From Hormiphora californensis (taxonomy: Eukaryota > Animalia > Ctenophora): a stretch of DNA of 64,000 nucleotides. Location: the NCBI GenBank assembly GCA_020137815.1, contig CM035360.1, positions 6,944,001 through 7,008,000 of the forward strand, read 5' to 3'. Position numbers and translations under genes: made by a program. This document shows, piece by piece, positions 26,501 to 29,500 of the stretch. Under the pieces are notes generated by a model. That model did no database searches. It was not told where the DNA came from and saw nothing but the letters and a program-made list of their open reading frames with translations. Every line of letters begins with the position of its first letter. Position 1 is the stretch's first letter.

Positions 26501-29500
26501 TAACAATCGCAGATATAGATATCCAATATCGGATATCAATTGCGAATCACTAATATGATAGTAATCGCAGACAAACAATTGCGGATAACTGATCACGAAT
26601 CCGTTATAAGATATCGCAATCAGTTATCGCGATCTTAGCTATCTGCGATTAGATACCCGCGATTGGTTACTACATACTTACTATATTACTTATTTGCGAT
26701 AAGTTATCGTGATTAGTTATGTGCGATTACTATTATTTATTAGTTATCAGCGATTGATTATATCCGCGATTGGTTCTCCGCGATTATTCTATGATTTTGA
26801 TTATTAGTCACGGATAATGATCACGGATACGCATTACGCATTGATAATCAGATATATCTGATACAATCGAGAAAAAGCGAATTAGTACCTAACCTGATTG
26901 CAATCAGGTTAGTTACTAATTCGCTTTTTCTCGGATGTTTTTAAAATCGTCTTATATTTAAGACAGTCATAACTCTAGATATGACTACCAATTATAACTG
27001 AAAATGCGACAGTTAACCTAATTTTATAAAATAAATCTGATTCAATGTTAATTTAGACTCTGAATCCCTTCTTTCTAGGTGTTTTTTAAATCGTCTTAAA
27101 TTTAAGACAGTCATAAATCTAGATATGACTACCAATTATATCTGAAAATACAGCAGTTGACCAACATTGGCAAAATATAAATCATAGAATCATGATTTAT
27201 AGTTTAATTTGCTCATTTCTAGGATTTTTTGAAAATCGTCTTAAATCTTAATACAGTCAGATGCCCGTAACTGAAGAACCGTAACTCGGATTTGCTTGAA
27301 ATTTCGAACGTGTGTTCAAGATGTCAAGGCAACACCACGTACCAAGCGTCGTGTTCGTAGAACGACGGGAAGGCCGTCTTAAACGCCAAACAAAACTTAA
27401 GACAGTCATAACTTTTGTTACGACTGTCTGTTTTCTCTGTCCAAGCTTTAATACAAGGTACACCACTAGACCTACCGACTCCCAAAGTTTCATGGTGATA
27501 TCTTTAAAACTGTGGCCTCCATCGTGTACGCAAAAAGGTCGTTACTTTACGGTCGTTCGTCACGCTAAAAACGGACATTTTGTCTAAAATACGACCATCT
27601 GTAGCGCAAAAACCGTAATTCCGATTTGCATGAAATTTTAAACGTGTGCTCTAGGTGTCAAGGCAACACGAACTACCAAGCGGCATGTTCGTAGGACAAC
27701 TAGAAGGTTGTCTAAAACTAAGTTGAAATCGCCGATTTCAGACAATAAGTATAGTAGCGCTGTCAGAATTTTCAAAAAATTTCAAAAATTTCAAAATTTT
27801 TTTTTTCGCAATTTCGATTTTCCTTTAACTGGAAGGGAAGATGCTTGGAAGAGGGACATTTTTAGGGGAAGGATGGTTGGGGGGAGGGAGGATTGGGCCC
27901 CGTGCGCTTGCCAGCGCTATGATTGTATTGTAATGTTGACGACTATCTGTATGCTCTAGTAACACCCTGTACCCATTATAATATCTGTGTCGATATTGTC
28001 AGTTTGTAGTCCGTCTAACAAGGTCTAGTGCACAGTCCCCTAGAGCGTTCCGGTGATATTCCCGTGTTATTCTCCGCTAAACCCACGCTTAACAAAACTG
28101 GAGACCAGAAAAGTGTAAAGGTGAGTCTGACGACATTTTCTTTCAAATTTCTTTACCAAAATAAATATCCCGCTTTAGAGTTTTGAACCAACCAACTTTC
28201 TCAGGAGACGATACAAGTGATATACACCGCGGGCCGGCCACCCTGGTATGATAGTACCGGTATCCAAGAATCTGATGCCTTTATTATTGGATTGTGTGGG
28301 GGTAGCGCCTCTGGGAAGACAAGTGTTGCCAAGGTGATTGTGGAATCTCTAGGTTAGTGTCGCCAAGGTGATTGTGGAATCTCTAGGTTAGTGTTGCCAA
28401 GGTGATTGTGGAATCTCTAGGTTAGTGTTGCCAAGGTGATTGTGGAATCTCTAGGTTAGTGTTGCCAAGGTGATTGTGGAATCTCTAGGTTAGTGTTGCC
28501 AAGGTGATTGTGGAATCTCTAGGTTAGTGTTGCCAAGGTGATTGTGGAATCTCTAGGTTAGTGTTGCCAAGGTGATTGTGGAATCTCTAGGTTAGTGTTG
28601 CCAAGGTGATTGTGGAATCTCTAGGTTAGTGTTGCCAAGGTGATTGTGGAATCTCTAGGTTAGTGTCGCCAAGGTGATTGTGGAATCTCTAGGTTAGTGT
28701 TGCCAAGGTGATTGTGGAATCTCTAGGTTAGTGTTGCCAAGGTGATTGTGGAATCTCTAGGTTAGTGTTGCCAAGGTGATTGTGGAATCTCTAGGTTAGT
28801 GTTGCCAAGGTGATTGTGGAATCTCTAGGTTAGTGTTGCCAAGGTGATTGTGGAATCTCTAGGTTAGTGTTGCCAAGGTGATTGTGGAATCTCTAGGTTA
28901 GTGTTGCCAAGGTGATTGTGGAATCTCTAGGTTAGTGTTGCCAAGGTGATTGTGGAATCTCTAGGTTAGTGTTGCCAAGGTGATTGTGGAATCTCTAGGT
29001 TAGTGTTGCCAAGGTGATTGTGGAATCTCTAGGTTAGTGTTGCCAAGGTGATTGTGGAATCTCTAGGTTAGTGTTCCCAAGGTGATTGTGGAATCTCTAG
29101 GTTAGTGTTGCCAAGGTGATTGTGGAATCTCTAGGTTAGTGTTTCAGGTGTTCCTTCAGGTGTTCCTGGGTTGCTATAGTAACCACCACTCTGTTTCAGG
29201 TGTCTCTTGTTGCTATGGTAACCACCACTCTGTTTCAGGTGTTCCCTGGGTTGCTATAGTAACCACCACTCTGTTTCAGGAGTTCCTAGTTGCTATGCTA
29301 ACTACCACTCTGTTTCAGGAGTTCCCTGGGTTGCTATGGTAACCACCACTCTGTTTCAGGTGTCTCTTGTTGCTATGGTAACCACCACTCTGTTTCAGGA
29401 GTTCCCTGGGTTGCTATAGTAACCACCACTCTGTTTCAGGTGTTCCCTGGGTTGCTATGGTAACCACCACTCTGTTTCAGGAGTTCCCTGGGTTGTAATC

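What the first reader, a model, noticed from the sequence alone, without database searches (positions are those of the whole stretch)
28322..29495. An intron built entirely from tandem copies of its own splice junctions
Seen: the 1128-nt UCKL1 intron (28353-29480) consists of ~23 extra copies of [last ~30 nt of exon + GTT donor start], immediately followed by ~8 extra copies of [intron end TTTCAG + first ~15 nt of next exon], with essentially no unique sequence. Each 34-nt unit starts GT and ends AG, so every boundary is TCTCTAG|GTTAGT, the AG|GT architecture of recursive splice sites. Only the outermost donor/acceptor pair restores the conserved ESLGVPWV peptide. Inference: either the spliceosome picks the first donor and last acceptor among many identical decoys, or the intron is removed stepwise. 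A junction-targeted duplication process seems to generate such arrays.
Basis: partly seen in the sequence, partly recalled or inferred. Interest (0 to 1): 0.85.

Follow-up and report, generated by a model that had tools for sequence, protein, structure and literature searches.

The report
Comb-jelly intron of copied splice junctions
One old intron of a comb-jelly uridine kinase gene is filled almost end to end with head-to-tail copies of its own two exon borders; it is a striking example of the "mirage" repeats known from lancelets and human F7, and is likely cut out in one step at its outermost splice sites.

Summary
The 1,128-nt UCKL1 intron of a ctenophore holds 23 extra 34-nt copies of the donor junction, then 8 copies (39-41 nt) of the acceptor junction; only 1 of 240 donor-acceptor pairs keeps the frame open. 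Both units occur in read contigs of two samples of this species and two of a related species, so they are no assembly artefact; the exact array-to-array joint was not confirmed. The intron position is old, so the repeats did not create it. This is a two-sided "mirage" minisatellite (amphioxus Adh3/globins; human F7 intron 7, where only the first donor is used). The recursive reading fails for the 34-nt units: their AG scores below all 51 other acceptors. Junction targeting is not supported: 7 of 104 junctions are duplicated, versus 4.5-7.6% of intron-interior positions and 0 of 12,258 exon tests. No RNA spans this intron, so site choice is inferred. The open part is how the last of eight strong acceptors is chosen; two decoys would regenerate a donor this gene already uses. 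The scan found the same kind on other genomes, including a two-sided case (e1-7908622).

The parts
28205..28352 (+). UCKL1 exon upstream of the intron (148 nt; P-loop region), its last 28-31 nt are the exonic part of the 34-nt unit
   Evidence: 90-91% identity to ctenophore UCKL1 proteins P0001/P0002; its upstream intron 28121-28204 is spliced in RNA run X11
28353..29480 (+). Phase-1 GT-AG intron, 1,128 nt, at an old position
   Evidence: only open-frame pair of 240; same position and phase in locus L006 (281 nt, no tandem repeat by TRF) and read-through in P0005/P0123
28322..29143 (+). Donor-side mirage array: 34-nt unit x 24.2, first unit spans the real donor; 23 decoy donors, each as strong as the real one (score 7.6, above 21 of 51 other donors); any decoy use keeps an in-frame TAG at 28355-28357
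   Evidence: covered at high depth in X1, X5, X8, X12
29144..29159 (+). 16-nt stub joining the two arrays, made of acceptor-unit letters, two weak AGs (29147, 29159); the arrays meet at a shared TGTT
   Evidence: sequence, scores -4.8 and -0.5; not bridged by any listed contig
29160..29495 (+). Acceptor-side mirage array: 8 units of 39-41 nt, last one spans the real acceptor; 7 strong decoy acceptors (scores 7.1-10.0, real one 7.1); 6 of the 9 decoy AGs are followed by GT
   Evidence: covered in X1, X5, X8, X12 with unit variants
29481..29585 (+). UCKL1 exon downstream of the intron; its first 15 nt are the exonic part of the acceptor unit
   Evidence: matches the continuous sequence of ctenophore transcripts L001, L002 and proteins P0001, P0002, P0004

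Best explanation
The intron is an old UCKL1 intron whose two borders were each duplicated head-to-tail and expanded into minisatellites (mirages), and it is likely removed in one ordinary splicing step from the first donor to the last acceptor. Shown: the arrays, the old intron position, the single open-frame pair, presence in two species. Inferred: (1) each array began as a short tandem duplication between microhomologies that flank the junction (GTT/AGTGTT on the donor side, GTTG on the acceptor side) and grew by slippage or unequal exchange; (2) such duplications survive because every extra copy falls inside the intron, whereas copies inside exons are purged, so no junction-seeking process is needed; (3) the original unique interior was lost or overwritten where the two arrays met at a shared TGTT; (4) the first donor wins by position (upstream-first, exon definition of the 148-nt exon) and the last acceptor by pairing with the next donor across the 105-nt exon; (5) every other choice carries an early stop or frameshift and would mostly be cleared by nonsense-mediated decay. 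The arrays most likely have no function.
For: Arrays and 1-of-240 open frame. Intron at the same position and phase, without repeats, in L006 and in genomic read-through proteins P0005, P0123. Microhomologies at both unit ends (the exon side reads AGC rather than AGT in X12 and in one X5 contig, so the donor-side overlap is 3-6 nt). Seven other junction-spanning duplications among the 52 introns annotated here, at the background rate of intron-interior duplications and none inside exons. In organism B an acceptor-type unit runs directly into a donor-type unit at TGTT, and some units have lost their AG, as expected of neutral repeat turnover. Precedent: only the most upstream of 5-9 identical donors is used in F7 (PMC1557585, abstract and Discussion); amphioxus mirages at 5' and 3' borders do not disturb the mRNA (PMC3087553 passages; PMC3902484 passage).
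Against: No RNA contig spans this intron (X11 stops at 28248, X14 laid nothing), so site use is inferred from frame and homologues only. Seven decoy acceptors score as well as or better than the real one, and first-AG scanning would favour an upstream one, so leakage may be substantial. The joint between the arrays is not confirmed in reads. Both arrays persist in two species whose exon differs at 12 of 118 letters (X8 record 17), which is longer persistence than a single recent accident. One setting of the targeting test is borderline (P 0.06).
Confidence: 0.8

Rival explanations
1. Re-splicing through the acceptor array: the spliceosome often lands on an upstream decoy acceptor, and because 6 of 9 decoys begin with GT the joined exon regenerates a donor that is spliced again to the last acceptor, so the intron is removed in two or more steps.
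For: Decoy acceptors are full-strength. Landing on 29200 or 29360 would regenerate TAG|GTGTCT, the same nine letters as the donor at 25820 of this gene, whose use is indicated by one RNA contig of X11 (depth 6); 281 and 121 nt remain, above the 84-nt shortest intron here.
Against: The GT is explained by inheritance: organism B's real exon appears to begin with GT (no other letter listed at 29240 in X12 record 10) and transcript L001 has GGT at this codon. Four of the six regenerated donors score 3.1, above only 2 of 51 real donors, and the 6.0 score of the other two is inflated because 25820 is in the training set. Three decoys begin with GA and could not be rescued. No RNA evidence.
Confidence: 0.08
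2. One reading: each 34-nt unit is a GT...AG mini-intron and the donor array is ratcheted out unit by unit.
For: Every unit boundary reads AG|GT and every GT is a full-strength donor.
Against: The AG lacks a pyrimidine tract and branch-like motif; acceptor score -12.1, below all 51 other acceptors; it also fails the minimal Y5+N0-4YAGGT motif used in PMC10156609 (passage; read off the sequence: only four pyrimidines precede TAG). 34 nt is below the 84-nt minimum here. The AG|GT is simply the exon's last two letters plus the donor.
Confidence: 0.02
3. A junction-targeted duplication process (for example splicing-linked DNA damage or R-loops at exon borders) makes these arrays preferentially at splice junctions in this genome.
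For: 9 of 27 intronic duplication events in three genes span a junction by 5 or more exon bases, and two more abut one; both ends of two introns (28353-29480 and 41231-49408) are duplicated.
Against: Expected 5.4-6.6 by random placement (P 0.06-0.18; 0.21-0.42 without this intron); per-position rate 7 of 104 at junctions against 4.5-7.6% in intron interiors.
Confidence: 0.12
4. The 'no unique sequence' state is partly an assembly effect: the arrays are real but a unique middle or a different joint was collapsed.
For: No contig bridges 29143-29165 in 4 of 4 runs; reads of X1 and X5 do not show the one-base-short unit at 29160; the window has apparent 1-nt indel errors in nearby exons; one X5 loose end at 29132 continues in a divergent sequence.
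Against: X1 also lacks the exon-to-array link seen in X5 and X12, so low-depth links are being dropped; in X8 the two unit types abut directly; no loose end in X1, X8 or X12 leads from the donor unit into unrelated intron sequence (13 of 14 loose ends shown).
Confidence: 0.15
5. The intron was newly created by tandem duplication of an AG|GT proto-splice site (Rogers/Hellsten model).
For: The exon-exon joint is AG|G and the intron consists of copies of flanking exon sequence.
Against: A distant UCKL1 gene (L006, 63% identical in this exon) and other ctenophore-like read-through proteins break at the same position and phase; the units include genuine intron ends.
Confidence: 0.02

Closest known systems
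Amphioxus 'mirage' minisatellites (Adh3, Canestro et al. 2002, seen only as reference 68 and as described in PMC3087553; globins BflGb6/BflGb9, Ebner et al. 2010 PMC3087553; troponin C and PGBD5, PMC3902484)
   Same: Tandem units that span an exon-intron border and duplicate the splice site; both 5' and 3' borders can be copied; unit sizes 10-72 bp at Adh3; concerted turnover of units; mRNA reported unaffected.
   Different: Here both borders of one intron are expanded and meet with no unique interior; higher copy number (24 and 8.5 against 3-6 at BflGb6); a ctenophore rather than a chordate; shared by two species.
Human F7 intron 7 37-bp VNTR (Borensztajn et al. 2006, PMC1557585)
   Same: First unit spans the exon-intron border; several identical, functional donors; only the most upstream one is used.
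   Different: Donor side only, 5-9 sites, single acceptor; tested by mutagenesis, whereas site use here is untested.
Recursive splice sites (YAG|GT with an upstream pyrimidine tract; PMC10156609 passages)
   Same: AG|GT at each 34-nt boundary; AG|GT behind a real 3' splice site in 6 of 9 acceptor-side decoys.
   Different: The 34-nt AG has no 3' splice-site context; no lariat or split-read evidence; sites are by-products of duplication.
Intron gain by tandem genomic duplication (Hellsten et al. 2011, PMC3265369, abstract only)
   Same: Intron built of duplicated flanking sequence around AG|G.
   Different: The intron here predates the duplications.

Membership tests
Mirage minisatellite | Tandem array of minisatellite-sized units | tested here: met
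   34 nt x 24.2 at 99%, about 41 nt x 8.5 at 87%
Mirage minisatellite | The unit spans an exon-intron border and duplicates the splice site | tested here: met
   donor unit 28-31 exon nt plus intron start; acceptor unit about 26 intron nt plus 15 exon nt
Mirage minisatellite | Length or unit variation between alleles | tested here: inconclusive
   unit variants and a different unit order in X5, X8, X12; copy number cannot be read from contigs
Mirage minisatellite | Mature mRNA uses the authentic sites, no aberrant forms | tested here: inconclusive
   no RNA contig reaches the intron; homologous transcripts and the 1-of-240 frame test support the outer pair
Recursive splice site | Functional 3' splice site (branch point, pyrimidine tract, AG) directly before GT, in the 34-nt units | tested here: not met
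   acceptor score -12.1, 0 of 51 real acceptors lower
Recursive splice site | 3' splice site directly before GT, in the acceptor-side units | tested here: met
   4 strong decoys (29200, 29239, 29360, 29440) and 2 weak ones are AG|GT; sequence feature only
Recursive splice site | Lariat or split-read intermediates | not testable with these tools
   only contigs were offered, none from nascent RNA
Intron gained by tandem duplication | Intron absent at this position in relatives | tested here: not met
   same position and phase in L006, P0005, P0123

The most novel reading that the evidence does not exclude
The acceptor-side array is a self-rescuing ladder: mis-splicing to an upstream decoy regenerates a working donor (the same nine letters as another donor of this gene) and the remainder is re-spliced to the true acceptor, so a neutral mirage has become an obligatory multi-step intron kept in two ctenophore species, a natural test bed for how the last of eight equal acceptors is reached.
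Probability: 0.08. Interest if true: 0.65.

Novelty: new member of a known kind. Interest (0 to 1): 0.27.

Why it matters
As it stands: it extends mirage repeats to ctenophores (I found no report there) and gives a clean natural substrate, with 24 identical donors and 8 near-equal acceptors in one intron, for asking how position rather than sequence picks splice sites; the acceptor side lacks the kind of mutational test done for F7 donors in the papers I saw. The window control suggests such arrays need no special mechanism, only frequent short duplications plus selection in exons. It would matter more if re-splicing through the acceptor ladder were shown.

Tried and rejected
No whole genome is held, so the targeting test is limited to 52 hand-annotated introns of three genes. 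RNA: X11 confirms the neighbouring intron 28121-28204 but ends at 28248; X14 laid nothing; neither speaks for or against site use here. The hole at the array joint is not counted as evidence of absence. Contig depth is no copy number; as a hint only, X5 shows about 287 on the exon and 4,878 on the donor unit, X8 about 57 and 945-1,265. RNA folding of the intron gave an empty centroid over most of the donor array and no shuffle control, so no masking structure is claimed. A palindrome-like motif in the acceptor unit also occurs at 11 other places in the window and was not given a role. The paper that named mirages (Canestro 2002) is not held; I know it only through PMC3087553 and PMC3902484. 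The ctenophore genome paper PMC8527503 (passages on intron, tandem repeat, repeat, heterozygosity; 12 of 14 places shown) does not mention junction repeats; its supplements were not read. Searches were seen as listings only apart from the papers cited. No structure or complex prediction was needed.

Full report
Observation. The stretch 28322-29495 is as described. TRF finds a 34-nt array of 24.2 copies at 99% and a 41-nt array of 8.5 copies at 87%. Parsing gives 24 donor-like sites at an exact 34-nt period, 28353 to 29135, and 10 acceptor-like sites, 29148 to 29481; of all 240 pairs only 28353/29481 leaves the frame open through the next exon. The intron is 1,128 nt: 791 donor array, 16 stub, 321 acceptor units. 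Two details of the finding need correcting: the acceptor unit includes about 26 nt of intron end with a branch-like TAAC, and four decoy acceptors also restore the first residues of the next exon before running into a frameshift or stop.

Gene and organism. The upstream exon is 90% identical to Mnemiopsis leidyi UCKL1 and 91% to P0001, whose cluster holds Bolinopsis microptera UCKL1, so the window is from a ctenophore; the species was not determined. I annotated by hand 12 UCKL1 introns, 7 of an upstream Sel1-repeat gene and 33 of a downstream IPT/TIG-repeat gene; all 52 are GT-AG (Pfam; the name PKHD1L1/fibrocystin-L for the last is recalled, not from a call). Two of the reading frames break at apparent 1-nt indels, which points to an imperfectly polished assembly.

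Is it real? Both unit types are covered by contigs in X1 (sample S1), X5 (S2) and in organism B (X8, X12); loose ends lead from the units into the upstream and downstream exons in X5 and X12. The arrays are therefore not an artefact and are shared by two species whose exon differs at 12 of 118 letters in one contig. Organism B shows unit variants, a unit that has lost its AG, and an acceptor-type unit running straight into a donor-type unit at TGTT. Against full confirmation: no listed contig bridges the joint between the arrays in any of the 4 runs. X1 also lacks the exon-to-array link, so such low-depth links are being lost; the joint remains unverified.

Age of the intron. Locus L006, a distant UCKL1 gene, has a 281-nt GT-AG intron at the same position and phase with no tandem repeat, and two genomic read-through proteins close to ctenophore UCKL1 (P0005, P0123) diverge at the same glycine. 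Transcripts L001 and L002 are continuous there. The duplications decorated an old intron; they did not make it.

Origin. Both units are bounded by short direct repeats: AGTGTT (or only GTT, since X12 and one X5 contig read AGC in the exon) on the donor side and GTTG on the acceptor side. This fits slippage or microhomology-mediated duplication followed by minisatellite expansion (inference from standard minisatellite biology).

Targeting test. A 16-mer centred on the junction has a near copy (up to 2 mismatches, within 120 nt, inward) at 4 of 52 donors and 3 of 52 acceptors, this intron included; intron-interior positions have one in 1,317 of 17,342 tests (7.6%; per-intron mean 4.5% over 49 introns, leaving out this intron and two over 1,400 nt); exon interiors in 0 of 12,258. 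Counted as events, 9 of 27 span a junction against 5.4-6.6 expected by random placement (P 0.06-0.18); without this intron 7 of 25 against 5.0-6.1 (P 0.21-0.42) (only 400 nt at each end of the 8-kb intron were scanned, and unit lengths were entered by hand). So the genome makes many short intronic duplications, exons reject them, and junction-spanning ones are tolerated. A mild enrichment cannot be excluded.

Splicing. With matrices from the 51 other introns, each 34-nt donor scores 7.6 (above 21 of 51 real donors), but its AG scores -12.1 as an acceptor, lower than all 51. It also fails the minimal recursive motif of PMC10156609 (passage; read off the sequence). Use of any internal donor retains a TAG right after the real donor. 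Seven acceptor decoys score 7.1-10.0, the real one 7.1, and all nine decoys give a stop or frameshift. In F7, 5-9 identical donors exist and only the most upstream is used (PMC1557585, abstract and Discussion), which covers the donor side by analogy. For the acceptor side I infer exon definition across the 105-nt exon plus decay of the wrong products; this is untested. RNA run X11 matches this organism and shows the neighbouring intron spliced but ends at 28248; X14 laid nothing.

What remains open. Six of nine decoy acceptors are followed by GT. Splicing to 29200 or 29360 would regenerate TAG|GTGTCT, the nine letters of the donor at 25820, whose use is indicated by one X11 contig. That permits re-splicing to the last acceptor. 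The GT is most simply inherited from an older exon start (organism B's real exon appears to start with GT; L001 has GGT), so I give this 8%.

Known kind. Tandem repeats spanning exon-intron borders were named mirages in amphioxus Adh3 and found at 5' and 3' borders of globin, troponin C and PGBD5 genes without disturbing the mRNA (PMC3087553 passages; PMC3902484 passage; the original paper is not held). Searches and the passages of PMC8527503 gave no ctenophore case. My reading was set before the look-up of earlier scan notes, which list the same kind in sea urchin, annelid, shark and other genomes, one of them two-sided with about 23 donors and 8 acceptors (unchecked notes); nothing was noted for this genome.

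Verdict. A real, extreme, two-sided mirage in an old intron; new member of a known kind; interest 0.27.

Noticed in passing
window 25812-25879, 40374-40443, 41225-41322, 52439-52505: Four more donor-spanning tandem duplications (periods 29, 33, 37, 49) in UCKL1 and the IPT/TIG-repeat gene.
   Followed up: yes
window 49287-49438, 56476-56592, 57949-58020: Three more acceptor-spanning duplications; the 8.2-kb intron 41231-49408 has duplications at both ends.
   Followed up: yes
window 59387-59769: A 410-nt intron filled almost wholly by a 46-nt unit x 7.9 that resembles and abuts its acceptor.
   Followed up: partly
window 23508-23580, 24566-24680, 25546-25819: Three apparent alternative first exons of UCKL1, all ending in phase 1; the third is joined to 28044 in RNA X11 through an unusual GTGTCT donor; Bolinopsis has three isoforms with different N-termini.
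   Followed up: partly
window 30599-30750: A second exon-like copy of the UCKL1 segment encoded by 31001-31119 lies in the preceding intron, possibly a mutually exclusive or terminal exon (seen).
   Followed up: no
window 32055-32206 and from about 52205 on: Reading frames of UCKL1 and the IPT/TIG-repeat gene break at apparent single-base indels, likely assembly errors.
   Followed up: partly
window 41400-47350: An element with long terminal inverted repeats whose interior is a 32-nt satellite that flips orientation three times (42191-46794), inside the 8.2-kb intron.
   Followed up: no
window 20930-21590, 25940-26400, 38880-39630: Non-autonomous inverted-repeat elements inside introns and between genes (seen).
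   Followed up: no
window, 18 places listed: A palindrome-like motif of the GTTACCATGGTAAC type recurs, often near intron ends and inside several duplicated units; its likeness to RFX X-boxes is recalled, not tested.
   Followed up: partly
window 60900-63900, minus strand: Looks like a LINE-type reverse-transcriptase/endonuclease frame interrupting the IPT/TIG-repeat gene region (seen; not scanned).
   Followed up: no
window 14334-14433: A 100-N scaffold gap with low-quality homopolymer flanks.
   Followed up: no
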